Part shown: positions 4,290 through 14,723 of the stretch, piece by piece | How positions within the stretch are numbered: the first letter of the stretch is position 1 | Layout of the letters: every line of letters begins with the position of its first letter | Source: an uncultured delta proteobacterium | GTDB taxonomy: Bacteria > Desulfobacterota > Binatia > UBA9968 | Length of the DNA stretch: 64,000 nt | Reading direction: 5' to 3' | Assembly (NCBI GenBank): GCA_963847445.1 | Contig: CAWJZV010000016.1 | Coordinates: 34,814-98,813, forward strand | Position numbers and translations under genes: made by a program | Notes under the pieces: generated by a model | Told to the model about the DNA's origin: nothing | The model's input: only the letters and a program-made list of their open reading frames with translations | The model's database searches: none

Positions 4290-4838
4290 TCATGAAGGCC
4301 CGGCAATCTCCTGACCGTTGTGTATCAACTTGCCAGCAACCGGCACGGGATTTTTCAGCGAGTTGATTGTGTGGCAGCCCATCTCAATCAATTGCAGCAT
4401 TTCTTGCACCTTCTCAGACGGCGCCGGACTTTGGATTTTGAAAATGTACGTCAGCTCCTTGCAGCCCGGCGAAACATCCGCCAGCAAAAGTTTGCCGCGC
4501 GTATCGTAAGTCATGCGAATATCCATCTCGGCGTCCTCGATCTCGATGTCCAGCTGTGACGCGTACCGCGCCAATTGGCTGAACATTCAAAACCCCGTCG
4601 CCGCGACGAAGTACTGCAACGGCGATGGCGCCTGGCCGCCGCCCTTGCGCGACTTCGCCTCGTCGCACTGGATGGTGTATTCGCCGATTCGCGCCTCTTT
4701 CAACTGGCCTTCGATAAGCCGAATCACTGCGCGGGTGGTCGTGGTATATCCTTCCGGCCCTTGCTTCGCGCGCTCTTGCTGCTCGCGATGCACTTCGCGA
4801 AACGCGTCCCGGTCGATCTTACTTTCAGTCGTAGCCAT
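4290..4838 (-). CDS. OsmC/Ohr-like selenoprotein (Sec84), 182 aa
   Basis: ORFs 4587-4838 and 4290-4586 abut in frame across one TGA (4587-4589): GGGQAPSPLQYFVAATGF-U-MFSQ...MGCHTINSL. The TGA aligns to the first catalytic Cys of OsmC (paralog at ~10 kb has AASCLMM). A hairpin follows. Confidence 0.88.
4546..4586 (-). promoter_or_regulatory. putative bacterial SECIS element (OsmC-like gene)
   Basis: mRNA right after UGA: AUGUUCAGC-caau-UGGCGCG-gua-CGCGUCA-ca-GCUGGACAU (9-bp lower stem, 7-bp upper stem, loop starting with G). Confidence 0.7.
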
Positions 4839-4896
4839 AAAGTGCTTCCTCTATCAGTCCCTCTGGTTAAATTTCCACGAACAAAAACTGAGTTGA

Positions 4897-5451
4897 TTAA
4901 CCGCGCAGAAAATCATCGCCTTTGATCCCGGTGGCGTCGGCCATGCGGTCGTTAAAATTGTACAGACAGATCACGTAAACGATGTCTAAAATATCGCGGT
5001 CGTCGAAGCCGTGGGAGCGCAGCGCCTTGATATCGTCCTCGTTCGCCGTCGACGGTGCAACCGTCAGCTTGACCGCGTAATCCAACATCGCCCGCTCTGC
5101 GGAAGATAAATTCAACTTTGTGTAATCGTGCTTAATTCCTTCGACCAAAGGATCGTCGTTCGATTCGGTACGGAGAGCCTCTCCGTGCGCGGTCATTCAA
5201 TAGCTGCAGTGATTGGTCGCCGACACCACCGTTGCGATCATCTCGCGTTGGCGGCGCGTGATGCGCGATTCGCCGCGCATAATCGACACGTCGAGCGCGC
5301 GCCAGGCGGCGAGGTTGTCGGGATTGAGGCTTTGCACCTGGCGGATCATGGAAACTTTGCCGCGCTCCGCCGATGGGCCGGAGCCCGACTCGTAAATCTC
5401 CTTGAGCTTGCCGGTCGCCTCGCCCGGCGGCACTGTTTTGATATAGGGCAT
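4897..5451 (-). CDS. AhpD/CMD-like selenoprotein 1 (CxxU, Sec85), 184 aa
   Basis: ORFs 5197-5457 and 4897-5196 are in frame across TGA 5197-5199: REMIATVVSATNHCSY-U-MTAHGEAL...YNFNDRMADATG. AGAAGGAG RBS precedes ATG 5451. Confidence 0.9.
5170..5186 (-). promoter_or_regulatory. putative SECIS hairpin (AhpD-like 1)
   Basis: ACGGAGA-ggc-UCUCCGU starting 10 nt after UGA. Confidence 0.7.
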
Positions 5452-5453
5452 GG

Positions 5454-5663
5454 TCACTCCTTCTGCCCGGCCACGGCCCGACGCGCTTGCTTCTCCGACA
5501 AGACATGTCTGACCGCTTCGACGATTTCATACCGATAGCTGGCTCGGTCCGGATTGGCGCGCAGCATGTCGACAATCTTTTGCGCCTCGGCCTGCGAGTA
5601 AAACAAGCCGACGGTGCTGACAGCGCCACCGGGACCGATTTCGTTGACGTAAAGTTTTTCCAT
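5454..5663 (-). CDS. small hypothetical protein (69 aa) within the selenoprotein operon
   Basis: RBS GAAAGGTG before ATG; stop is 2 nt upstream of the AhpD-like 1 start. Confidence 0.6.
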   Translation of the reverse strand: MEKLYVNEIGPGGAVSTVGLFYSQAEAQKIVDMLRANPDRASYRYEIVEAVRHVLSEKQARRAVAGQKE

Positions 5664-5733
5664 CGATCACCTTTCCGAACTTCGCGCCTTTGCGCCTTTG
5701 CGAGAGATATTCGTTTCTGGTGACCCATTCATG

Positions 5734-6640
5734 CTAATAGGTTTTCGGCGTTTTGTAGCCGACTTGCTTGCGCTCTTTCATGAACGCCTTATAGGTTTCG
5801 GGATGAGACTTCACGATATACGGACACGCGTCGACGCAGAGATGACAGTACTCTTCGCGCAGTCGCGAGTAGGGGTAGCACTTCTCCAGATCGATCAGCC
5901 AGCGCTTGATGCCCATGGGTCATGACGTGATCCTGTGGAATCGCGTCGCCCGGGCAGTTGCGCTGGCAGACGTTGCAGTTCATGCAGAAGTCCTGCACGC
6001 CGAACTCGCGCGGCTGATCTTCCAGCAGCGGCAAATCAGTGGTCACGAAACCTGGACGAAAGCTCGCGCCGTACTTTTCGTTGATCAAGCTACCGTGGCG
6101 ACCGAGCTCGCCGAAACCGACTTGATAGAAAATCGGAATCGCCTGAACCTCGCTGGCGCCGTTATGGTGCGCGATCGCTGGATAGCCCATCTCGCGCACG
6201 TAGGCCGCTAGCGCCGTCGCGATCTCGGTGCACTTCGCGTAGGTTCGCATCGCTTCTTCCTCGACAGCGTCGGGCCCCTGAGTAACCTTTTCATAATCCT
6301 CCGCGACGCAACAAGCGATTACGAACTCATGCGGCACTTCCGAGCCGAGATCGATCATATGCGGCTGCAAGCGGCAGACACCGACCATATTGGCGCCCAA
6401 TTCCGTCGCCTTCGCTTTGATCTGCGCGGTCATCGCCGCCGGATCGCTGACCGTTACCCGCTGCGGATTAACGGGACCGTCGCGATAAGGCGCCAGTTTC
6501 ACCCAACTGGCGCGATAAGCTTGAATGGTCGGCTTCACCGCCGCGTAGTGGCGCGACTCCGTCGCCCCCGTGGCATGAACCATTTCGGCTAATACCGGGT
6601 CAGCCATGCCCTGCTCTCTTCGAGGCGTTATCCCACGCAT
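5734..6640 (-). CDS. reductive dehalogenase/epoxyqueuosine-reductase-like 2x[4Fe-4S] protein (frameshift near 5915)
   Basis: KAKATELGANMVGVC, GFGELGRHGSLINEKYGASFR, CMNCNVCQRNCP and, after the shift, CYPY...CHLCVDACP. No Tat signal. Confidence 0.75.
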
Positions 6641-6688
6641 TACATCGTCCTCCTATTCAATCGGCTCCCCATGTTGCATTGATCCCGC

Positions 6689-7132
6689 TTAGCGCGGCGC
6701 TACGCCGAAAGCCGCCGCCATGCGAATCGCGTAATTGTGATAAGCGATCGTAGTGGCGACTAACAATACTTCACTGTCGCTAAAACCTACCGCTCGCAAC
6801 TCGTCGACATCGCGCTTGCGCACCGAAGCCTCGTCGATAGTGCCTTTCTCCGTATAGGCCAGCACCGCCTGCTCCGCAGCCGTGAGCGAGAGCGCGCGCC
6901 AATCGCTTGCGGCCTGGGCGGCGAATGGTTGATCTAGCGGGCCGCGCAAGGCTTCGACGAAACCCTGGCAACGCAAGCAGCCGGCAACCACAATGCCGAT
7001 CAAGCTGTACAGGCGCGGCGTCAATTGTTCGACGAGCAGGCGGCGCATGGCAGTGTCCGCTTCGAGCGCGCCGGGCGCCGCGCTGAGCAGATCCTCAATC
7101 CCTTTACCTGCGACCATCCGCAGGCGGCTCAT
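6689..7132 (-). CDS. AhpD-like protein, apparently lacking the second catalytic Cys/Sec and His
   Basis: DWRALSLTAAEQAVLAY...LRAVGFSDSEVL...YHNYAIRMAAAFG resembles its neighbours; the active-site region reads VVAGCLRCQGF. Confidence 0.65.
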   Translation of the reverse strand: MSRLRMVAGKGIEDLLSAAPGALEADTAMRRLLVEQLTPRLYSLIGIVVAGCLRCQGFVEALRGPLDQPFAAQAASDWRALSLTAAEQAVLAYTEKGTIDEASVRKRDVDELRAVGFSDSEVLLVATTIAYHNYAIRMAAAFGVAPR

Positions 7133-7777
7133 GGGTCATCCTCGTAGAGCGAAGTCTGCAGCTGTTCGCGAGTCACGCCGAAGGCTTGCAAAATTTCCTC
7201 AGGGAAAGTCGAACTTCTCTTCCTCGACGCCGAGCAAATCGGCGATGCGGTCTACCCAGTTTCGATAACCGGCGCCCAGACCGATGGAAAGAATTTGCTC
7301 GTCGCTAAAGCCCGCCTGGCGCAGCGCTTCGATATCGGCGTCGGTGATTTGGCTCGGCGTCACGGTAAACTTCTCGGTAAACGCCAGCATCGCTTTCTCC
7401 TGATCGTCCAATTCGGCGTCACGCCAGTTGGAGATCACCTTGGCGACTTCCTCCACCGCCATCTTGCCGTCGACACGGAGAAACTCCCCGTGACCGATGC
7501 CTCAAAACCGGCAACCGCTCAGCGCCGCAACCTGGGTGGCGATAAGCTCTTCCTTGCGCCGGCCCAAACCGGAATTACCGGGCCGATAAATGCCCTTGTC
7601 GAAGCCGACCCGAGCCTCGAGCAGCTCCGGGCATAGGCTGAAGATGATCACGATGGGCGGCAGCTTGTCTCCTCGCCGCTGCCGCACCGATGGGCTCAAC
7701 CTGGCGAGGGTCCGATCATAAACATTTTTGAGTTCGCCCGTGGCTTCGTCTTCGGCGATAACTTTAATGAAACTCAT
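7129..7777 (-). CDS. AhpD/CMD-like selenoprotein 2 (CxxU, Sec92); probable 1-nt frameshift near 7202
   Basis: ELIATQVAALSGCRF-U(7502-7504)-GIGHGEFLRVDGK joins ORF 7199-7462 in frame. The corrected C-terminus FPEEILQAFGVTREQLQTSLYEDDP ends in an ATGA overlap with the next gene. Confidence 0.88.
7470..7497 (-). promoter_or_regulatory. putative SECIS hairpin (AhpD-like 2)
   Basis: UCGG-u-CACGGGGA-guu-UCUCCGUG-UCGA with a bulged U; same register from UGA as in the other two AhpD genes. Confidence 0.7.
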
Positions 7778-7804
7778 AAGTTTTGCCCTGCCTGCAGATT
7801 TGAA

Positions 7805-7838
7805 TTGACCTCCTACTACTAATCGTATAAGCAGTCAA
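7805..7838. promoter_or_regulatory. operator/divergent promoter box, copy 1
   Basis: TTGACCTCCTACTACTAATCGTATAAGCAGTCAA between divergent genes; 31/34 identical to 10364-10397. Confidence 0.8.
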
Positions 7839-7918
7839 TCCTAATTACAGTAGCGACCCATTCGGAAACTCAAGTAAGCCGAAGCCGGGACAGTCAGCAA
7901 AAAATAAGAGGAGATCCA

Positions 7919-8410
7919 ATGGCAAAACAACTCAATGCGGGAGATTTGTTTCCGGCATACCAGGTTCAGACGACAGACGGCCGAACCCTTCATCTGCCGC
8001 GCGACCTTAGCGGTGAATATTCCGTACTGATCTTCTATCGCGGCATTTGGTGACCCTACTGCCTTCGGCAGTTAGCCGACTACCAAGCACACATCGACGC
8101 TTTTAAGAACGAAAAGATCGACATCGTTGCTCTATCGGTCGATCCTCTCGACAAGGCCAAAGAAACAGTTGACAAGCTGCAGCTTACATTCCCCGTGGCT
8201 TACGGCCTCGAAGTGCCACGGGACGCGGACAAAGTGGGCGCGTTCTGGGAAGAGCGCAGGAAAATCCTTCACGCGACAAACTTCATCCTGGACTCGGACA
8301 AGAAAGTTTGCGACGCATCGTACAGCATCGGCCCCATCGGGCGAATCGTTGCCGTGGATGCGTTGAGCCATATCCAGTTTTTCAAGAAGAGAAAAACACA
8401 GAAAACCTAG
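7919..8410 (+). CDS. peroxiredoxin-like (AhpC/TSA, redoxin) selenoprotein 1 (UPYC, Sec45), 163 aa
   Basis: ATG 7919 after GAGGAG; MAKQLNAGDLFPAYQV...VLIFYRGIW-U(8051-8053)-PYCLRQL...VALSVD... continues in frame into ORF 8195-8410. The N-terminal half is missing from the ORF track. Confidence 0.9.
8065..8079 (+). promoter_or_regulatory. putative SECIS hairpin (Prx-like 1)
   Basis: UCGGC-aguua-GCCGA, 11 nt after UGA. Confidence 0.55.
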
Positions 8411-8496
8411 TTCGGGGAACCTATCGGCGTGGATGATCGTTATTGCGCATACCGACTCGATATAGCGGATCGCCATATTTGACAGAAGGAGGGTTT

Positions 8497-9138
8497 ATGA
8501 AACGAAACCCACATTCCCGGTCCGGCACACGCTCGATTTCGAATCTGCGAATTCGCTACGCCGTAGTCGTCGTATGCGGCTTTCTTGGTCTGTTTGCCTC
8601 CCTCGCCAATGCTCAATTGGGTCCTAAAGACGGCGCAAACCTAACACCCACGGATCTAGAGCGAGTCAAGGTCGGCGACACGGCACCGGATTTTACGCTT
8701 GAGAATATGGATGGCCTGAAAATCACCCTATCGGACGTCTACCGTAGCAAAAAAGTGGTTCTGGTGTTCTATCGCGGTCAATGGTGACCCTACTGCACAC
8801 AACAGCTCGGCGAGCTGAAAGGCCTGTTAAGTCCAGACGAAAAGAATCTGGTTCAGCTACTTGCGGTGAGTGTCGACAGTCACGACGATTCCAAAAAGTT
8901 TGTGCAAAAACTCAAGGAGCGATTTGCCGGCGATCTCGACTTTCCGCTTCTCGAGGACAGAGGCCACAAGGTGATCAACCGCTATGGCATTTTCAATCCG
9001 AGCAGCAAAGGCTGGCCCCACCCGGCGACTTATGTCATCGATACCAAGGGAGTCGTCCGTTGGCGCGTTGTCGAAACCGATTACAAGAAACGGCCCACCA
9101 ACGCGCAAATTCTTGAGGCGATCAGAAGATTGCCGTAG
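8497..9138 (+). CDS. exported peroxiredoxin-like selenoprotein 2 (signal peptide, UPYC, Sec97), 213 aa
   Basis: RBS AGGAGG; signal ending in ANA; VGDTAPDFTL...VLVFYRGQW-U(8785-8787)-PYCTQQL...LAVSVD...HPATYVIDTKGVVRW, in frame with ORF 8866-9138. Confidence 0.9.
8803..8817 (+). promoter_or_regulatory. putative SECIS hairpin (Prx-like 2)
   Basis: CAGCUC-ggc-GAGCUG, 15 nt after UGA. Confidence 0.6.
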
Positions 9139-9170
9139 CCGCTTTCGACGAGCGGCAGCGATTGAACAGC

Positions 9171-9842
9171 TTAACGAACTTTCCACCGATCTGCGGGCAT
9201 CGCGACACCGCGCTCCTCTGCCAACTTCGCGGCGCGCTCCGCACCGGCACGGGCGCGCTGAATCTGCCAATCGGCAACTTCCAAACCCAGCCCGTCGACC
9301 ACCCGCACGCGAAAATTGAAATAGGCACAGACGTGCACGATATCGAGGATGTCGCGGTCATCCCAGCCCTTGTCACGTAGGCCCTGTACGTCTTGCTCGC
9401 ACATGTTGCTCGGCGTCAGCGTGAGTTTTTCGGCGAACTCCAACATGGCATATTCCGCAAGGGTCAAATTCATTTCGCGCCAAGCATCTTTGACTTGCTC
9501 CACCGATAAATCATCGCCGCCTTCCTGACGCAGAAACTCTGCGTGAGCGACGGTTCAAAACCGGCAATGCAGCGTTGCTGCGGTCACCGTGGCGATCATC
9601 TCGCGCTGCGCAGTCGTCAATCGCGACTCACCGCGCATAATCTCCCACATGAGCTCGGCGGTGTGCCACATCGCTTTGGGATTGAGACTGTGCAGCATTG
9701 GCGGGCTAATCGGTGCGCCACCGTAACCGGCGTCGCGATCTTGGTTGATCTTTTCGCCTCGGCGCTGCTCGCGGATCTTTCGATATACTTCTTTCAATTC
9801 CCCGTGCGCGTCATGTTCCGGAATAATCTTGATCCACGGCAT
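9171..9842 (-). CDS. AhpD/CMD-like selenoprotein 3 (CxxU, Sec96), 223 aa
   Basis: MPWIKII...REMIATVTAATLHCRF-U(9555-9557)-TVAHAEFLRQEGG joins ORF 9171-9503 in frame (YFNFRVRVVDGLG). Confidence 0.9.
9528..9544 (-). promoter_or_regulatory. putative SECIS hairpin (AhpD-like 3)
   Basis: ACGCAGA-guu-UCUGCGU, 10 nt after UGA. Confidence 0.7.
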
Positions 9843-9909
9843 CGCCGTTCCTCCATATTCGCCGGTGGCGCCCCTGAATCGAGGGCCGGCATCGATGCGA
9901 GCGGTCGAC

Positions 9910-10337
9910 TTAGCGCCGCCCCTGGCCAAACAACAAGGCTTTTGACTCCTCGTTCACCGTCGGCTCGGGTGCCGAGATCGATCCGGTCAGCTCGATCTGG
10001 TAAATCATATCGGTGAACACCCGAGCGTCGCGGTCGTGTGCGCTCGCGCGACCATTTTGATGCTGTCGACCGGCATGGGTTTCTCTTTCAAGACGTTGGC
10101 ATACTGCATCATCAGGCAGGAAGCCGCGCCGGTAACGAAATAACCGAGCGGAGTCGGCCCCGACCCTTTGCCGCCGCGGATCTCGGGCTCATCGATCATC
10201 AGCTGGAATGCTTTTTCCTCGGTCTTGTAAGTCGCCTCGAACGTTTTGTGCTCCTGGCGCGCGATGTCGACGCGCACCGTCCGATGGGCCGGCTCGCCAA
10301 TTTGCTCGTTGGACCTTCTGCCATGATCACCTTCCAT
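9910..10337 (-). CDS. OsmC-like protein, Cys form (frameshifted; C-terminus possibly damaged)
   Basis: IDEPEIRGGKGSGPTPLGYFVTGAASCLMMQY; an alternative frame after ~10038 reads DRDARVFTDMIYQIELTGSIS. Confidence 0.65.
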
Positions 10338-10363
10338 TAGAATTATTCATCGCGTCCGCGAGT

Positions 10364-10397
10364 TTGACCTCCTACTACTAAACATATAAGTAGTCAA
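10364..10397. promoter_or_regulatory. operator/divergent promoter box, copy 2
   Basis: TTGACCTCCTACTACTAAACATATAAGTAGTCAA containing ACTACT-N9-AGTAGT; ends 1 nt before the regulator ATG. Confidence 0.8.
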
Positions 10398-10398
10398 C

Positions 10399-11142
10399 AT
10401 GCGCCTCGTTAAGCGATCCGGCTCTCCCCTACCGCTCTATTTCAAGATCATGACCGAGATCCGTGACAACATTCTTTCCGGCGCGTGGAATGACGGCTTT
10501 CAACTTCCCGGTGAAGCGGATCTCGCCCGCCGCCGCGGCGTCAGCGTCATCACCGTGCGCCAAGCGTTAGGCCAACTGGCTCACGAAGGGCTGGTCCGGC
10601 GCGAGCGAGCCAGGGGGACCTACGTCAGCTGGAGCGGACCGGTCAATCAGGCGATCAATTTAGAAATCGAAGCCGACAACCTGGTCACACTGAATCCGGC
10701 GGGCACAAGCTTTAAGCTTCTCCGCACGGAACAGATCGACGCCCCGGCCAACCTTCGCGGCGACTTCAAGTTATTAGCTGGGGAACGCATAACCCGCATG
10801 ACGCGCGTCCGTATGGCGCATCGCGAACCGCTTGCCTTCGTCTATTCCGACGTTCCGACCCGCATCGCGGCAACACTGCCACAAAAAAGCCTGCTTAAAC
10901 TGCCGCTTTCCAGCGTCATCGAAAAGGCTTTGGCGATCCGCATCACGGACGTGAAACACCTCGTCGGAGCGAAGCTCGCCGACGAGGAAGTAGCAGCCAA
11001 CCTGAACATACCGCCCGGCTCGCCGGTACTTTTCGTCGAGCGCAACTATTTCTACAAGAACGATCTGCTCTTGCGCACCGTGGGTTTCTACCGCAGCGAT
11101 CTGTTCCGCTATGAAATCAAATTAAAAACCAGCCGCCGCTAG
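10399..11142 (+). CDS. GntR family (HutC subfamily, UTRA domain) transcriptional regulator
   Basis: PLYFKI...LPGEADLARRRGVSVITVRQALGQLAHEGLVRRERARGTYV; C-terminal YRSDLFRY. Confidence 0.9.
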   Translation: MRLVKRSGSPLPLYFKIMTEIRDNILSGAWNDGFQLPGEADLARRRGVSVITVRQALGQLAHEGLVRRERARGTYVSWSGPVNQAINLEIEADNLVTLNPAGTSFKLLRTEQIDAPANLRGDFKLLAGERITRMTRVRMAHREPLAFVYSDVPTRIAATLPQKSLLKLPLSSVIEKALAIRITDVKHLVGAKLADEEVAANLNIPPGSPVLFVERNYFYKNDLLLRTVGFYRSDLFRYEIKLKTSRR

Positions 11143-11201: not shown

Positions 11202-11576
11202 TTAATGCTTCGACGTACTCCCTGGCACCGTTACCGTGATATGCGACAGCGGCGAGTCCGCCGACGCGCCGTGCCAATGGCGTTCGCCGGATTTAATATG
11301 CACGATATCGCCGACGGTAATCTCGCGCTGTTCGGTTTCCGTTGCTGCGAAACCTTTGCCCGCCGTTACGACGAGAATCTGATCACAGTCATGGACATGC
11401 CAGCCGGTGGTCGCGCCGACGCGGAAGTTGACCACGTTGCAGCGAAAATTATCCGACTGCCCGTCGCCGATCACCGCCTGCCGCGTCCGGCTCACCGCCC
11501 CGCCGGTCCAACCGGCGATCGCCGTCGCCGTGTCCATTGGAGTTTCCTTGAGTTCGTTAATCTTAAGAACACGCAT
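11202..11576 (-). CDS. cupin domain protein
   Basis: WHVHDCDQILVVTAGKG...GERHWHGA. Confidence 0.85.
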   Translation of the reverse strand: MRVLKINELKETPMDTATAIAGWTGGAVSRTRQAVIGDGQSDNFRCNVVNFRVGATTGWHVHDCDQILVVTAGKGFAATETEQREITVGDIVHIKSGERHWHGASADSPLSHITVTVPGSTSKH

Positions 11577-11810: not shown

Positions 11811-12764
11811 ATGCTATTCGTCCAAACCGTCTTGCTTTTTAGCATCTTCATCACGCCGCTAACCTTCGCCGCGGAGAAAATCCGCATGTCGGTCTCCGGC
11901 AGCTACAATATGATCTTTCTCGCCGCCGGCGTGGCGCATCACAAAGGATTCTTCAAAGACGAAGGTCTGGAAACCGACATCGTCGTCATGAGCGCGCCGG
12001 CGTCGATCGCCGCGCTATCGAACGGCGACATCGACTACACGCTGCTCACCGGCTCGGTGATCCGCGCCGCCATTCGTGGCCTGCCCGTCCGTATCGTCGC
12101 CGGCTTGATGAGCAGCTCCGCGCATGTTTTCCTGTCCCGGCCGGAAATAAAGACAATCAAAGAGCTCGCCGGTAAACGAATCGGACTCGCCGGCTTCGGC
12201 GACGCCACTCACGTCCTTGCGCGAATGATTCTTGCCAAACACGGCATCGACCCGGATAAAGACGTTCAGTTCATCGGACTCGGCTCCGACTCCGGCCGCT
12301 TCACCGCCCTGCAACAAAACCTCGCCGACATGGTCGTCACATCGCCACCCTGGGACTTCGAGGGGAAAAAGCTCGGCTACAACATCCTCGCCCGCGCCTA
12401 CGAGCATGTGAACTATCCGCTCGCGGGCCTCGGCGTGAATCAAAAATCTTTGCAAACCAACCGCGGCCAAGTGAAACGAGTGGTCAAATCGCTAGTGCGG
12501 GCCAACCGCTTCATGCGCGACAACCGCGAGGAGTCGGTGAAAATCTTGATCGTCTGGGGCAAAGGCAAACCCGAGCACGCCTCCGCCGCCTACGATTCCA
12601 CAGTGAAAATCATCAGCCCCGACGGCGGAATCCCGGATGACGGACTAAGACTTTTGATCGATCAAGCCAAGCGCGACCTGAAAGTCACACGCGACGTGCC
12701 GCTAAGTGAGATCACCGACTTTAGTATCTTGCGAGAAGTGCAGAAGGAGTTAGGGTTGCGCTAA
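11811..12764 (+). CDS. ABC substrate-binding protein, NMT1/THI5/SsuA-like
   Basis: Signal peptide; KGFFKDEGL, ALSNGDIDY, IKELAGKRIG. Confidence 0.85.
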   Translation: MLFVQTVLLFSIFITPLTFAAEKIRMSVSGSYNMIFLAAGVAHHKGFFKDEGLETDIVVMSAPASIAALSNGDIDYTLLTGSVIRAAIRGLPVRIVAGLMSSSAHVFLSRPEIKTIKELAGKRIGLAGFGDATHVLARMILAKHGIDPDKDVQFIGLGSDSGRFTALQQNLADMVVTSPPWDFEGKKLGYNILARAYEHVNYPLAGLGVNQKSLQTNRGQVKRVVKSLVRANRFMRDNREESVKILIVWGKGKPEHASAAYDSTVKIISPDGGIPDDGLRLLIDQAKRDLKVTRDVPLSEITDFSILREVQKELGLR

Positions 12765-12810
12765 TTGTATGATTGGATAGGCCAGGCAGGTCCCGGGCGC
12801 CAAACCTGAC

Positions 12811-14723
12811 ATGATCACCCACCCCATCCGCGTCCTATCGGTCATCCCGCCAATGACGCAGCTCAACACGCCTTATCCTTCGACGGCGTATCTCACAGGC
12901 TTCTTGCGCTCGCGCGGCGTCGATGCGGTGCAAGAAGATCTGGCACTCGCTCTAGTCTTAAAACTTTTTTCCGCCGACGGACTGTTAGCGATTCGTGAAT
13001 GCATCGAGGCGATCCCGAAGCGCAAGCGCTCGCCGAACGTCAAGGGTTTTCACCGCGACTTTGACCGCTATCTCTCGACGATCACACCGACCATTGCGTT
13101 CTTGCAGGGACGTGACCCGACCTTGGCGCACCGCATTTGCGGGCGACAATTTCTTCCCGAAGGGCCGCGCTTCAAGCCCATCGACTTCTATCTCCAAGAC
13201 GGCAACGACGACCCGTTGGCTTGGGCGTTCGGCGCACTGGGAATCGAAGACCGCGCCAAACATTTGGCCACGCTGTACCTCGATGATCATCGCCGACGTG
13301 CTGCGCGACGCGGTGGACCCGCGTTTTGAGTTTGTCCGCTACGCCGAATCGCTGGCGCAAAGCCAACCGACATTCGAGCCGCTCGCCGAAGCTTTGGCGG
13401 CACCGCTCAATCTGGTCGACAGCACACTGCGCGATCTGACTCTGGCCGCGCTGGCACGCCATTCACCGAACTGTGGTCTTACTCTCGGTGCCGTTCCCAG
13501 GATCGGTGTACGCCGCGTTTCGCATCGCCCAGACGATCAAGGCGCACGACTCGTCGATCATCACCGCGCTTGGCGGCGGCTATGTCAACACCGAGCTGCG
13601 CGAACTGAGCGAACCGCGGGTGTTCGATTATTTCGACTACGTCACGTTAGATGACGGCGAGCGGCCGCTCCTCGCATTGCTCGAGCACCTGCGCGGCGAG
13701 CGACCCGAGAGTGGTCTGGTTCGCGCTTTTGTGCGTGCCGGCAACAAATCCGCGGTCAACTACCTCGATAGCGGCGAACCCGACATCCCCTTCGCCGAAG
13801 TCGGCACCCCAACTTGGGACGGACTGCCGCTGGACGGCTATTTGTCGCTCCTCGACATGCTCAACCCGATGCACCGGCTGTGGTCCGACGGCCGTTGGAA
13901 CAAACTCACGGTTGCCCATGGTTGTTACTGGAAGAAGTGCAGCTTCTGCGACGTAAGCTTGGATTATATCTCGCGCTACGACGACATCGCCGCGGCGACC
14001 CTGGCCGATCGTATCGAGACGGTCGTCGCCGAAACCCAACAGACGGGATTTCATTTCGTCGACGAAGCCGCGCCACCGAAGGCGTTGAAGGCGCTCGCCG
14101 CCGAGATCAAGAAACGCAAGCTGGCAATTTCATGGTGGGGCAATATTCGCTTTGAGAAATCTTTCAACCCTACGCTTTGCCAAGCACTCGCCGACAGCGG
14201 CTGCATCGCGGTCTCCGGCGGGCTCGAGGTCGCTTCCGACCGCCTGCTCAATCTGATGAAAAAGGGCGTCACCGTCGAACAAGTCGCCAGAGTCACGCGG
14301 GCATTTTCCGACGCCGGCATTTTGGTCCACGCCTATTTGATGTATGGCTTCCCGACGCAGACAGTGCAAGACACGGTCGACGCGTTAGAATATGTCCGGC
14401 AATTGTTCGACGCCGGCTGCATTCAGTCAGGCTTCTTCCATCGGTTTACCTGCACGGTCCACTCGCCGGTCGGGAAACAGCCCGAACAATACGGCGTCAC
14501 GCTCATGCCCTTGCCGAAGATCTCCTTCGCGAAAAACGACGTCGGCTTCATCGATCCCACCGGCGTCGACCACGACGCTCTCGGCATCGCCCTCAACAAA
14601 GCGCTCTACAACTACATGCACGGCATCGGCCTGGACGCCGACGTGCGCAGTTGGTTTAACGGCCGAGTGCCGCGCACCAAGGTGCCGCGCAGGTATATCG
14701 CGCGGGCACTCACGTCGGCTTAA
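12811..14723 (+). CDS. B12-binding-domain radical SAM protein (two frameshifts, ~13290 and ~13470)
   Basis: PPMTQLNTPYPSTAYL N-terminus; GCYWKKCSFCD (CxxxCxxC); FVDEAAPP; GGLEVAS; YLMYGFP. Confidence 0.85.

What the first reader, a model, noticed from the sequence alone, without database searches (positions are those of the whole stretch)
4290..11142. Hidden six-selenoprotein redox island under one GntR regulator
Seen in sequence: six genes within 5.6 kb each contain one in-frame TGA (4587, 5197, 7502, 8051, 8785, 9555) with a clean reading frame on both sides. Every TGA sits at a catalytic Cys position: OsmC GF-U; AhpD CSYU, CRFU, CRFU; Prx-like W-U-PYC twice. Other breaks in this window are indels, not in-frame stops, so six TGAs at active sites are unlikely to be noise. 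Established: AhpD-like, OsmC-like and Prx-like selenoprotein families are each known. Inference: packing six of them into three co-regulated transcription units with a dehalogenase-like Fe-S enzyme points to a dedicated selenium-dependent pathway rather than scattered antioxidants. I know of no described system with this architecture. Standard annotation would split it into about 12 hypothetical fragments.
Basis: partly seen in the sequence, partly recalled or inferred. Interest (0 to 1): 0.93.

Follow-up and report, generated by a model that had tools for sequence, protein, structure and literature searches.

The report
Six-selenoprotein redox gene cluster
An uncultured soil and water bacterium keeps six selenium-containing antioxidant-type enzymes, a vitamin-B12-type reductase and a likely regulator in one conserved gene cluster; the enzyme families are known, but I found no description of this arrangement.

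Summary
Six genes between 4290 and 9842 each carry one in-frame TGA at the stated coordinates. The six are three AhpD-like (CxxU), one OsmC-related and two thioredoxin-fold Prx-like (UxxC) genes. TGA is kept at 28 of 28 orthologous sites in eight same-genus loci and at 68 of 69 sites in 29 public loci. It aligns with Cys in solved homologues. In five of six genes it is followed by the stretch of lowest synonymous variation in the gene, as a SECIS hairpin would give. selA, selB and selD are present.

The cluster also holds an NpRdhA-like reductive-dehalogenase-family protein, a conserved 69-aa ORF modelled to bind it, two Cys paralogues and a GntR/UTRA regulator. A 34-bp promoter/operator-like element occurs only twice in 7.19 Mb, once in each divergent intergenic region of the cluster.

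All three selenoprotein families are already curated, and six-selenoprotein operons of other composition are in print. I rate this a new variant, not a new kind. A dedicated selenium pathway is not shown; co-regulated peroxide/electrophile defence is more likely.

One caveat stands: intact tRNA-Sec is missing from this assembly. Its gene is split beside an integrase.

The parts
4290..4838 (-). OsmC-related selenoprotein (182 aa), Sec codon TGA at 4587-4589 in the motif ATGF-U-MFSQ; second conserved Cys in GCH
   Evidence: ORFs. Pfam OsmC E 3.6e-15. NCBIfam NF041052 'OsmC-related (seleno)protein' 146.4 bits against cut-off 95. U aligns with Cys of PDB 3cje and 2opl. TGA in 6 of 6 orthologues.
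4897..5451 (-). AhpD-like selenoprotein 1 (184 aa), HCSY-U, Sec codon at 5197-5199
   Evidence: TIGR01926 142.6 bits against cut-off 81.8. U aligns with the second Cys of the CxxC in PDB 2pfx and 3c1l. TGA in 20 of 20 public loci. The hairpin ACGGAGAG-GCU-CUCUCCGU is almost invariant in 19 distinct sequences.
5454..5663 (-). Conserved 69-aa ORF of no known family, directly downstream of the Rdh-like gene; modelled partner of that protein
   Evidence: No Pfam family. Present next to the Rdh-like gene in 22 of 22 distinct pairs. Complex model ipSAE 0.79 (median of 3 runs), best of 3 controls 0.00; runs agree in at least 60% of contacts; partner pLDDT at least 74.
5672..5712 (.). Copy of a dispersed short repeat (REP-like) between the Rdh-like gene and the 69-aa ORF; not specific to the cluster
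   Evidence: 77 further BLAST hits in the genome. Many copies in same-genus genomes. About tenfold depth and loose ends at its borders in public contigs.
5734..6640 (-). Reductive-dehalogenase-family (NpRdhA-like) protein of about 300 aa with two 4Fe-4S motifs. In the window it is broken by one extra base at 5911, which is an assembly error
   Evidence: Intact orthologue L043:195-1097 matches PDB 4ras (NpRdhA) at E 9.3e-54 and PceA at E 2.7e-22. TIGR02486 RDH scores 115.6 bits, below cut-off 160.35. Fer4_7. Base 5911 is left out in contigs of X1, X3 and X5.
6689..7132 (-). Short Cys-type AhpD-like paralogue (147 aa, GCLRC). Its start overlaps the AhpD2 stop (ATGA)
   Evidence: TIGR01926 at E 9.4e-13, below cut-off. 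The first Cys varies among relatives: A in 1 of 6, L or M in others. The second Cys, the position of U in its paralogues, is kept in the 6 contexts printed.
7129..7777 (-). AhpD-like selenoprotein 2, GCRF-U, Sec codon at 7502-7504. The C-terminal 20 or so residues are out of frame in the window because of an extra base near 7205-7208
   Evidence: TIGR01926 97.1 bits against cut-off 81.8. TGA in 6 of 6 orthologues. One base left out at 7205 or 7208 in public contigs. The orthologue in L039 reads on through ...FDFPEEILKAFGVTREQL....
7805..7838 (+). 34-bp promoter/operator-like element, copy A, between AhpD2 and Prx1 (TTGACC-N15-TATAAG inside TTGAC...GTCAA arms)
   Evidence: Only two matches in 7.19 Mb at up to 7 mismatches. 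Conserved in 11 loci of relatives in the equivalent intergenic region or next to the GntR start.
7919..8410 (+). Prx-like thioredoxin-fold selenoprotein 1 (163 aa), W-U-PYC, Sec codon at 8051-8053
   Evidence: Pfam AhpC-TSA E 5.2e-20. TGA in 3 of 3 and 5 of 5 orthologues. Lowest synonymous variation of 133 windows lies right after the TGA.
8497..9138 (+). Prx-like thioredoxin-fold selenoprotein 2 (213 aa) with an N-terminal signal-peptide-like segment, W-U-PYC, Sec codon at 8785-8787
   Evidence: Pfam AhpC-TSA E 4.3e-35. U sits three residues before the peroxidatic Cys position of BCP 2cx3. TGA in 6 of 6 public loci. The signal peptide is read from the sequence only (basic residues, then a hydrophobic run ending ANA-Q).
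9171..9842 (-). AhpD-like selenoprotein 3 (223 aa), HCRF-U, Sec codon at 9555-9557
   Evidence: TIGR01926 118.3 bits against cut-off 81.8. TGA in 12 of 12 public loci. The hairpin ACGCAGAG-UUU-CUCUGCGU carries a G-C to C-G swap relative to AhpD1.
9910..10337 (-). Cys-type OsmC paralogue (OsmC2). In the window a base is missing at 10036, and the 3' end has diverged so that the second catalytic Cys is lost
   Evidence: Pfam OsmC over the first half. The intact 175-aa orthologue L039:3413-3940 matches OsmC at E 1.5e-16. A T is put in behind 10036 in X1 and X3. The 3' divergence shows in the alignment.
10364..10397 (+). 34-bp promoter/operator-like element, copy B, ending 1 nt before the GntR start codon (suggests a leaderless GntR mRNA)
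   Evidence: The same juxtaposition to the GntR start is seen in L068, L071, L102 and L110.
10399..11142 (+). GntR-family regulator of the HutC type (winged helix plus UTRA effector domain), 247 aa
   Evidence: Pfam GntR E 8.1e-17 and UTRA E 9.7e-20. An orthologue lies at the edge of the cluster in 3 of the 4 same-genus loci that hold most of the cluster (L039-L041; not found in the part of L042 that was fetched) and in 9 public loci.

Best explanation
Window 4290-11142 is a real, conserved gene cluster of a selenoprotein-rich uncultured bacterium. Records of its relatives are titled Candidatus Binatia or 'uncultured delta proteobacterium'.

Six genes use UGA for selenocysteine at the redox-active residue:
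- three AhpD-like proteins (CxxU);
- one OsmC-related protein;
- two thioredoxin-fold Prx-like proteins (UxxC), one of which looks exported.

With them lie two Cys paralogues, an NpRdhA-like cobalamin/Fe-S-family reductase with a small 69-aa partner, and a HutC-type GntR regulator.

Proposed working (inferred). The regulator binds the 34-bp element that overlaps a promoter-like TTGACC-N15-TATAAG in both divergent intergenic regions. It releases the element when its UTRA domain binds an unknown small molecule. All four transcription units are then switched together. The products form a selenol/thiol relay that reduces organic hydroperoxides or reactive electrophiles, in the manner of AhpD with AhpC and of OsmC/Ohr. 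The Rdh-like enzyme handles a related oxidised or halogenated compound.

Shown: the genes, the Sec codons, their conservation, the RNA constraint after each UGA, the shared DNA element and the synteny.
Inferred: regulation, chemistry and substrate.
For: Sec codons:
- TGA at 28 of 28 orthologous sites and at 68 of 69 sites in 29 public loci.
- U aligns with catalytic Cys in solved homologues.
- Each UGA is followed by a hairpin.
- The 11 codons after the UGA rank 0 to 3 of 108-208 windows for synonymous variation in five genes, and 24 of 171 in OsmC.
- The AhpD1 and AhpD3 hairpins differ by a compensated G-C to C-G pair.

Machinery:
- selA 569.8 bits and selD 360.3 bits are over their cut-offs; selD itself contains one TGA. 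selB is present in pieces in the same operon.
- The operon is intact in G004, G006 and G012.
- tRNA-Sec at 73 bits or more is found in 15 of 20 relatives. That includes 7 of 12 in the same genus, one of them the unpublished G005.

Families: NF041052 and TIGR01926 are matched over their cut-offs.

Common control: the 34-bp element occurs only twice in 7.19 Mb, both times in the cluster. It is conserved in 11 loci of relatives.

Synteny: the cluster recurs in G034, G004, G030 and G012. The window's own gene order is bridged by independent contigs of runs X1 and X3.

Rdh-like protein: 4ras at E 9e-54. The partner model scores ipSAE 0.79 against a best control of 0.00. That mark was reached by 58 of 80 solved complexes and 2 of 110 mismatched pairs.
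Against: - No intact tRNA-Sec is in this assembly. Only a 23-nt 5' piece (C4:239463) and a 28-nt 3' piece (C12:77575) remain, the latter beside an integrase. All 20 ordinary tRNA specificities are present.
- selA, selB and selD carry six one-base insertions relative to G004, whereas rpoB and rpoC have none in 8 kb.
- No Rfam SECIS family matched. The hairpin stems are almost invariant, so covariation within orthologues is minimal.
- The Prx1 hairpin lies unusually close to the UGA.
- The consensus promoter scan found nothing above chance.
- Function and regulation have no direct evidence. No RNA holder was on record.
- Rdh-like orthologues in other lineages stand without selenoprotein neighbours.
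Confidence: 0.7

Rival explanations
1. One reading: the cluster is one dedicated selenium-dependent pathway built around the dehalogenase-like enzyme. It would carry out, for example, reductive dehalogenation or epoxide/peroxide repair of one class of compounds. The Sec proteins would be obligatory partners rather than general antioxidants.
For: - AhpD1(TGA) follows the Rdh-like gene and the 69-aa ORF in 20 of 29 public loci whose Rdh-like gene is 78% or more identical.
- All units share one unique DNA element.
- The regulator has a small-molecule (UTRA) domain.
- The nearest solved relative of the Rdh-like protein is a catabolic dehalogenase.
- Prx2 gives a weak hit to a deiodinase-related model, E 1.8e-6 and far below cut-off.
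Against: - Rdh-like orthologues at 68-78% identity in other lineages have none of these neighbours within 8 kb (for example L086).
- The content of the cluster varies among relatives: Prx2 is absent in some, an extra AhpD-like gene is present in others, and blocks have moved.
- The Sec proteins are paralogues of broadly antioxidant families.
- No electron donor for a cobalamin enzyme is encoded in the cluster.
Confidence: 0.2
2. In this particular strain the cluster is no longer translated as selenoproteins. selC has been destroyed by an integrated element and selAB are decaying, so the six genes are recent pseudogenes or make truncated products.
For: - The selC gene is split, and its middle 40 nt are nowhere in 7.19 Mb.
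- An integrase lies beside the 3' piece.
- There are six one-base insertions in selA, selB and selD, but none in rpoB or rpoC.
- OsmC2 has lost its 3' end.
Against: - One-base insertions are general assembly noise here: 5 in 6.7 kb of C12 against G003, and 3 indels in the cluster that public contigs do not share.
- The frames downstream of all six TGAs are intact and 84-91% identical to orthologues in the eight same-genus loci; Prx2, with one orthologue there, is 77%.
- The assembly is 91.8% complete with 6.9% contamination, and the selC locus is a mobile-element junction.
- The near relative G003 has an intact selC between the same flanks.
Confidence: 0.1
3. The TGAs are sequencing or assembly errors, or ordinary stops separating 12 small genes.
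For: The assembly does contain errors: indels at 5911, 7205/7208 and 10036.
Against: - The errors seen are indels, not substitutions.
- TGA is kept in independent short-read and long-read assemblies at every orthologous site.
- Both halves of each gene match a single protein family across the TGA.
Confidence: 0.01

Closest known systems
AhpD-like, OsmC-like and Prx-like/redoxin selenoprotein families of the marine metagenome surveys, and NCBIfam NF041052 and TIGR01926
   Same: Same families and same Sec positions: CxxU in AhpD-like, U at the first catalytic Cys of OsmC, UxxC in thioredoxin-fold Prx-like. The GOS paper reports one read with neighbouring Prx-like 1 and AhpD-like 2 genes (PMC2398784, passages seen). 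The 2026 review tabulates these families (PMC13188914, passages seen).
   Different: Here six such genes, plus Cys paralogues, an RdhA-family gene and a regulator, form one conserved cluster in a non-marine lineage. The OsmC motif is U-x-x-S rather than the tabulated U-x-x-T.
SAO (Sec-assisted organometallic) six-selenoprotein operon and the Tso operon (Haft and Gwadz 2023; Haft and Tolstoy 2025, as cited in PMC13188914 section 9; I saw only that review's passages)
   Same: Several selenoprotein genes are packed into one operon-scale unit. The review reads this as pathway-level use of Sec.
   Different: The families are entirely different. None of the SAO or Tso models appeared among the NCBIfam hits. 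SAO is linked to organometallic chemistry and ABC transport, whereas this cluster is made of peroxidase and thiol-oxidoreductase paralogues. The 2025 paper was not held, so I cannot exclude that it describes this neighbourhood.
Mycobacterial AhpC-AhpD alkylhydroperoxidase relay and OsmC/Ohr organic hydroperoxide reductases (recalled from general knowledge, not from a call)
   Same: The cluster combines an AhpD-type CxxC protein with a peroxiredoxin-fold protein and OsmC-type two-Cys peroxidases. This is the basis for the proposed peroxide-reducing relay.
   Different: Sec replaces one Cys. The Prx-like proteins carry a thioredoxin-type UxxC rather than the canonical peroxidatic context. No lipoamide or thioredoxin reductase gene is in the cluster. 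The regulator is GntR/HutC, not OxyR or OhrR.
NpRdhA, the soluble catabolic reductive dehalogenase of Nitratireductor pacificus (PDB 4ras, 6zxu)
   Same: The Rdh-like protein aligns with the C-terminal core and two 4Fe-4S motifs of 4ras at E 9.3e-54. Like NpRdhA, it has no obvious membrane anchor gene beside it.
   Different: It has only about 300 aa against 704, so it is a single core without the duplicated N-terminal domain. It scores below the TIGR02486 cut-off. It comes with a 69-aa modelled partner. Cobalamin binding and substrate are untested.

Membership tests
Bacterial selenoprotein gene (UGA decoded as Sec) | In-frame TGA aligned with Cys (or Sec) in homologues | tested here: met
   U aligns with Cys in PDB homologues of AhpD1 (2pfx, 3c1l) and OsmC (3cje, 2opl). 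In Prx2 it sits at the first position of the xxC pair. The Cys paralogues AhpDc and OsmC2 lie in the same cluster.
Bacterial selenoprotein gene (UGA decoded as Sec) | TGA conserved among orthologues, with coding sequence conserved on both sides | tested here: met
   28 of 28 sites. 68 of 69 sites in 29 loci; the one exception is a 52%-identical AhpD2-like hit in L051.
Bacterial selenoprotein gene (UGA decoded as Sec) | SECIS stem-loop immediately downstream of the UGA | tested here: inconclusive
   A hairpin is predicted after each UGA, but only 2 of 6 fold clearly better than shuffles (z about -2.2). Strong suppression of synonymous change covers the hairpin in 5 of 6 genes. One compensated pair separates paralogues.
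Bacterial selenoprotein gene (UGA decoded as Sec) | selA, selB and selD in the genome | tested here: met
   The operon lies at C14:191.4-195.7 kb. It carries six one-base insertions relative to G004. I judge these to be assembly noise, but that is not proven.
Bacterial selenoprotein gene (UGA decoded as Sec) | tRNA-Sec (selC) in the genome | tested here: not met
   There is no intact gene. Only two fragments flank an integrated element. It is present in 15 of 20 relatives. The assembly is 91.8% complete.
Bacterial selenoprotein gene (UGA decoded as Sec) | Selenium found in the protein | not testable with these tools
   This needs 75Se labelling or mass spectrometry.
AhpD-like 'peroxidase-related enzyme' (TIGR01926) | Score over the curated cut-off, and a CxxC/CxxU motif | tested here: met
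   AhpD1 142.6, AhpD2 97.1 and AhpD3 118.3 bits against cut-off 81.8. AhpDc scores 48.3 bits and does not reach it.
OsmC-related (seleno)protein (NF041052) | Score over the curated cut-off, with Sec or Cys at the first catalytic position | tested here: met
   146.4 bits against cut-off 95. In the class-wide search the window copy scores 137.9 bits with 1 TGA. In that search all 14 sampled genomes of the same order gave a match, and 13 of them a match over the cut-off that holds one TGA (G040 included; the one row that also holds a TAG belongs to G007, whose second match holds one TGA alone).
Peroxiredoxin (AhpC/TSA, PF00578) | Pfam score over the gathering cut-off | tested here: met
   Prx1 72.1 and Prx2 120.8 bits against cut-off 26.
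Peroxiredoxin (AhpC/TSA, PF00578) | Canonical peroxidatic Cys context (Thr/Ser-x-x-Cys), and a match to a curated peroxiredoxin equivalog | tested here: not met
   The Thr/Ser position is occupied by U, giving W-U-P-Y-C. No NCBIfam peroxiredoxin, ResA or SelL-related model reaches its cut-off. I therefore call them 'Prx-like thioredoxin-fold UxxC proteins', not peroxiredoxins.
Reductive dehalogenase RdhA (TIGR02486) | Score over the curated cut-off | tested here: not met
   115.6 bits against cut-off 160.35, E 4e-33.
Reductive dehalogenase RdhA (TIGR02486) | Two 4Fe-4S motifs and similarity to solved RdhA cores | tested here: met
   CxxCxxCxxxCP plus C...CxxCxxxCP, with all Cys invariant in 23 sequences. 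4ras at E 9.3e-54 and PceA at E 2.7e-22.
Reductive dehalogenase RdhA (TIGR02486) | Cobalamin cofactor and dehalogenating activity | not testable with these tools
GntR family, HutC subfamily | N-terminal GntR winged helix plus C-terminal UTRA domain | tested here: met
   PF00392 61.1 bits and PF07702 71.2 bits, both over their cut-offs.
SAO or Tso selenoprotein operons | Presence of the SaoL/B/C/P/T/X or TsoA/B families | tested here: not met
   None of those models is among the NCBIfam hits of the eight proteins searched.

The most novel reading that the evidence does not exclude
The cluster is a ligand-induced, selenium-dependent reductive detoxification module. In it a minimal NpRdhA-type cobalamin enzyme, with its 69-aa subunit, works together with Sec-containing thioredoxin-fold and AhpD/OsmC proteins on one class of oxidised or halogenated organic compounds. 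The UxxC Prx-like proteins would act in a deiodinase-like manner. This would be a bacterial pathway whose every thiol step has been upgraded to selenol, under one HutC-type switch.
Probability: 0.15. Interest if true: 0.8.

Novelty: new variant of a known kind. Interest (0 to 1): 0.5.

Why it matters
Annotation. Standard annotation cuts these six genes into fragments, so the redox capacity of this abundant, uncultured soil and freshwater lineage is underestimated.

Test bed for a general idea. The cluster is a compact, conserved case for the proposal that Sec is kept through pathway-level coordination. It offers paralogous Sec and Cys versions side by side (AhpD1-3 with AhpDc, OsmC-U with OsmC2), a candidate regulator with a defined 34-bp site, and an RdhA-family enzyme whose link to selenoproteins I did not find described.

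Side findings that can be checked. The Rdh-like protein has a predicted small partner. In this assembly selC is split by an integrated element, although the genome carries about 20 UGA-Sec genes.

Tried and rejected
- Rfam on the window found no family at gathering score. On the sel operon and on the ARAGORN 'tRNA-SeC' site it found nothing either.
- ARAGORN at lowered thresholds gave 94 spurious tRNA-SeC calls and was dropped.
- The consensus promoter/terminator scan was at chance level: 2 promoter-like sites against 3.0 expected, and 10 terminator-like sites against 8.8. It does not allow the 15-nt spacer of the 34-bp element.
- My genome-wide scan for Sec codons (coding potential on both sides of a TGA) is crude.
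  - It recovered only 2 of the 6 cluster sites and listed 253 candidates, most of them antisense or noise.
  - I sent 10 candidates to Pfam. Five were plausible selenoproteins (AhpC-TSA_2, GrdB, thioredoxin-like, GST-like, UGSC). Three were merely adjacent genes in one frame. Two had no family.
  - L113, L122 and L123 were fetched but never searched.
- Sequencing runs: no RNA holder is listed. Run X20 is only guessed to be RNA. Its contigs lie on parts of the cluster, but I draw nothing on expression from this.
- The laid runs are contigs, and 259 of 299 base differences were not shown.
- I considered a complex model of the Rdh-like protein with AhpD1 (an enzyme with a possible redox partner). 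I did not send it, because such pairs rarely pass and a failure would say nothing.
- I considered structure prediction of the Rdh-like protein and left it out, because the match to 4ras is already strong.
- I recall Tyr426, Lys488 and Arg552 as catalytic residues of NpRdhA. In the alignment they correspond to Tyr, Arg and an insertion. The residue numbers come from memory, so I make no claim on them.
- Literature. No paper in the library holds Binatia with selenoprotein or Binatia with reductive dehalogenase. One holds Binatota with selenocysteine (listing only). One holds reductive dehalogenase, selenoprotein and AhpD together; it is a general review (listing only).
- Haft and Tolstoy 2025 is not held. 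Supplements are closed. Either could describe this neighbourhood.

Full report
**What is there**

Read with TGA as U, window 4290-11142 holds the following genes.
- Minus strand: OsmC-U (4290-4838), AhpD1 (4897-5451), a 69-aa ORF (5454-5663), an Rdh-like gene (5734-6640), a short Cys-type AhpD paralogue AhpDc (6689-7132), and AhpD2 (7129-7777).
- Plus strand: Prx1 (7919-8410) and Prx2 (8497-9138).
- Minus strand again: AhpD3 (9171-9842) and a Cys-type OsmC2 (about 9910-10337).
- Plus strand: a GntR regulator (10399-11142).

Pfam and NCBIfam assign the products as follows:
- OsmC-U matches NF041052 'OsmC-related (seleno)protein' at 146.4 bits against a cut-off of 95.
- The three AhpD-like proteins match TIGR01926 at 142.6, 97.1 and 118.3 bits against a cut-off of 81.8.
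- Prx1 and Prx2 match AhpC-TSA/Redoxin.
- The regulator matches GntR plus UTRA.

**Are the TGAs real and meaningful?**

In eight loci from seven other genomes of the same genus, all 28 orthologous sites carry TGA, while neighbouring codons show synonymous changes. In 64 public loci found through the Rdh-like protein, 29 cover at least one site. Of 69 covered sites 68 are TGA, and 60 of 60 are TGA at 60% identity or more. The one exception is a 52%-identical AhpD2-like hit.

In solved homologues:
- the U of AhpD1 aligns with the second Cys of the CxxC (2pfx, 3c1l);
- the U of OsmC-U aligns with the first catalytic Cys (3cje, 2opl);
- the U of Prx2 lies three residues before the peroxidatic Cys position of the BCP 2cx3, which gives a thioredoxin-type UxxC.

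Each UGA is followed by a small hairpin. The stems hardly vary, so covariation within orthologues says little.

Synonymous variation is more telling. The 11 codons after the UGA show a mean synonymous difference of 0.13-0.26, against 0.42-0.59 for the rest of each gene. That window ranks 0, 1, 2, 2 and 3 among 108-208 windows in five genes, and 24 of 171 in OsmC-U. The hairpins of the paralogues AhpD1 and AhpD3 differ by a compensated G-C to C-G pair. I read this as a SECIS-type constraint, although no Rfam family matched.

**Independent data**

Contigs of four public runs (biofilter, estuary and soil metagenomes) were laid on the region.
- None of the 40 listed base differences touches a Sec codon. 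A further 259 differences were not shown.
- The contigs omit base 5911, omit a base at 7205 or 7208, and add a T behind 10036. The breaks in the Rdh-like gene, in the AhpD2 C-terminus and in OsmC2 are therefore errors of this assembly.
- Single contigs bridge AhpD2 to the intergenic region (X1, 7627-7918), the intergenic region to Prx1 (X3, 7809-8457), and Prx2 through AhpD3 and OsmC2 to GntR (X1, 8568-11142). The window's gene order is real.

**Sec machinery**

selA, selB and selD form an operon at C14:191.4-195.7 kb. selD itself has a TGA. The operon carries six one-base insertions relative to G004. It is intact in G004, G006 and G012.

Similar insertions occur elsewhere in this assembly. 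There are five in 6.7 kb of C12 against G003 and three indels in the cluster. By contrast rpoB and rpoC have none in 8 kb. I take the insertions as assembly noise, without proof.

selC is the weak point. No intact tRNA-Sec was found by any of these:
- Rfam, whose best hit of 45 bits is a tRNA-Ser;
- ARAGORN, whose only hit is an 82-nt false one;
- a structural scan of my own, whose positive control worked.

Only the first 23 nt, with their conserved upstream flank, are present at C4:239430-239485. The last 28 nt are at C12:77575-77602. In the near relative G003 an intact tRNA-Sec lies exactly between the homologous flanks. A tyrosine integrase sits 324 nt from the 3' piece. All 20 ordinary tRNA specificities are present.

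Fifteen of 20 relatives have tRNA-Sec at 73 bits or more. The same-genus count of 7 of 12 includes the unpublished G005. The lineage clearly decodes Sec. Whether this strain does so now remains open.

**Regulation**

The two divergent intergenic regions share a 34-bp element at 7805-7838 and 10364-10397. It is found nowhere else in 7.19 Mb at up to 7 mismatches. It is conserved in 11 loci of relatives.

The element contains TTGACC-N15-TATAAG inside TTGAC...GTCAA arms. Copy B ends one base before the GntR start codon, as it does in four relatives. That suggests a leaderless, autoregulated mRNA.

In G034, G004 and G030 the order is [OsmC2, AhpD3, AhpD2, AhpDc, Rdh, 69-aa ORF, AhpD1, OsmC-U], divergent from [Prx1, (Prx2), GntR], with one copy of the element. 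In the window the Prx1-Prx2 block, with a second copy of the element, lies between AhpD2 and AhpD3. This gives four transcription units in two divergent pairs. Common control by the GntR protein is an inference from this pattern.

**The Rdh-like gene**

The intact orthologue (300 aa) matches the core and Fe-S part of the catabolic dehalogenase NpRdhA (4ras) at E 9.3e-54, and PceA at E 2.7e-22. It stays below the TIGR02486 cut-off. All eight cluster cysteines are invariant in 23 sequences.

A 69-aa ORF of no known family follows it in 22 of 22 distinct pairs, and also in a 73%-identical orthologue of another lineage.

A complex model supports binding but does not show it.
- The ipSAE is 0.79 (median of three runs) and the best of three controls is 0.00.
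- That mark was reached by 58 of 80 solved complexes and by 2 of 110 mismatched pairs.
- The runs agree in at least 60% of contacts, and the partner's pLDDT is at least 74.
- My own alignments were used, so these counts hold only roughly.
- The modelled interface covers residues 232-252, between the two Fe-S motifs.

Rdh-like orthologues at 68-78% identity in other lineages have none of the selenoprotein neighbours within 8 kb. This argues against an obligatory coupling.

**Genome context**

The genome is rich in selenoproteins. Besides the six genes and selD, I found:
- two more OsmC-related genes with TGA;
- a Prx1 paralogue, three TPT-U peroxiredoxins and an FYRGYW-U-GKC protein;
- AhpC-TSA_2, GrdB, thioredoxin-like, GST-like and UGSC-family candidates.

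That makes at least 19. Three further GrdB-like sites rest on the motif alone. The scan recovered only 2 of the 6 known cluster sites, so the real number is probably larger. Matches to the OsmC-related model came from all 14 sampled genomes of the order, and 13 of them have a match over the cut-off that holds one TGA; in the rest of the class the matches over the cut-off hold no TGA.

**Comparison with what is known**

All three selenoprotein families are curated, and neighbouring Prx-like and AhpD-like genes have been noted. I saw this in passages of PMC2398784 and PMC13188914. The same review describes larger operons, including SAO with six selenoproteins and Tso, but these have other families.

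I found no paper that links Binatia with selenoproteins, or RdhA with these families. The most relevant paper, Haft and Tolstoy 2025, was not held, and supplements are closed.

**Verdict**

The cluster is a new variant of the known kind 'multi-selenoprotein gene cluster'.

Its most likely role is a co-regulated selenol/thiol defence against organic peroxides or electrophiles. The role of the Rdh-like enzyme is unresolved. A single dedicated pathway remains possible but is not shown.

Noticed in passing
outside the window: G000 C4:239430-239485 and C12:77575-78258: The tRNA-Sec gene is split. Its 5' 23 nt, with the conserved upstream flank, lie on C4. Its 3' 28 nt lie on C12 next to a tyrosine integrase. 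At least 49 kb lies between them, and the middle 40 nt are absent from the assembly. The near relative G003 has the intact gene between the same flanks.
   Followed up: partly
outside the window: G000 C14:191400-195800: The selA-selB-selD operon carries six one-base insertions relative to G004, and none of them lies in a long homopolymer. rpoB and rpoC have none. The assembly's indel noise is mostly insertions and is unevenly spread.
   Followed up: partly
window 5454-5663 (-): A 69-aa ORF of no known family always follows the Rdh-like gene, also in distant Binatia without selenoprotein neighbours. It is modelled to bind between that protein's two Fe-S motifs: ipSAE 0.79, best control 0.00.
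   Followed up: yes
window 5672-5712: This is a short dispersed repeat with 77 further BLAST hits in the genome and many copies in same-genus genomes. Depth is about tenfold in public contigs.
   Followed up: partly
window 7778-9170 compared with L039, L040 and L041: The Prx1-Prx2 block, with a second copy of the 34-bp element, has moved from between OsmC2 and GntR (as in G034, G004 and G030) to between AhpD2 and AhpD3. The new order is confirmed by independent contigs.
   Followed up: yes
window 9843-10036: The 3' end of OsmC2 has diverged from its orthologues and lacks the second catalytic Cys. The Cys paralogue may be decaying while the Sec paralogue is kept.
   Followed up: partly
outside the window: G000 C17:213652, C24:75271, C32:4644, C42:220741: Four GrdB-like genes (glycine/sarcosine/betaine reductase B family) have TGA in an LT[SA]T-U-G motif. 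One was checked by Pfam (E 4.7e-102). C32 and C42 share an identical 25-aa context, so they may be a duplicate.
   Followed up: partly
outside the window: G000 C24:35784, C30:194094, C46:273330, C4:24410: Four further Sec gene candidates: UGSC family, GST-like, thioredoxin-like (W-x-x-G-U-x-x-C) and AhpC-TSA_2.
   Followed up: partly
L043:3948-4547, and the equivalent in L061, L068 and L069: Some relatives carry a fourth AhpD-like Sec gene (KCSY-U) and an NMT1-type binding protein between AhpD1 and OsmC-U. Their clusters therefore hold up to seven Sec genes.
   Followed up: no
window 12765-14723 (+): A long frame with a radical-SAM-like CxxxCxxC (…CSFCDVS…) appears to be broken by frame changes. 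It lies beside an NMT1-type binding protein (11811-12764) and a cupin (11202-11576).
   Followed up: no
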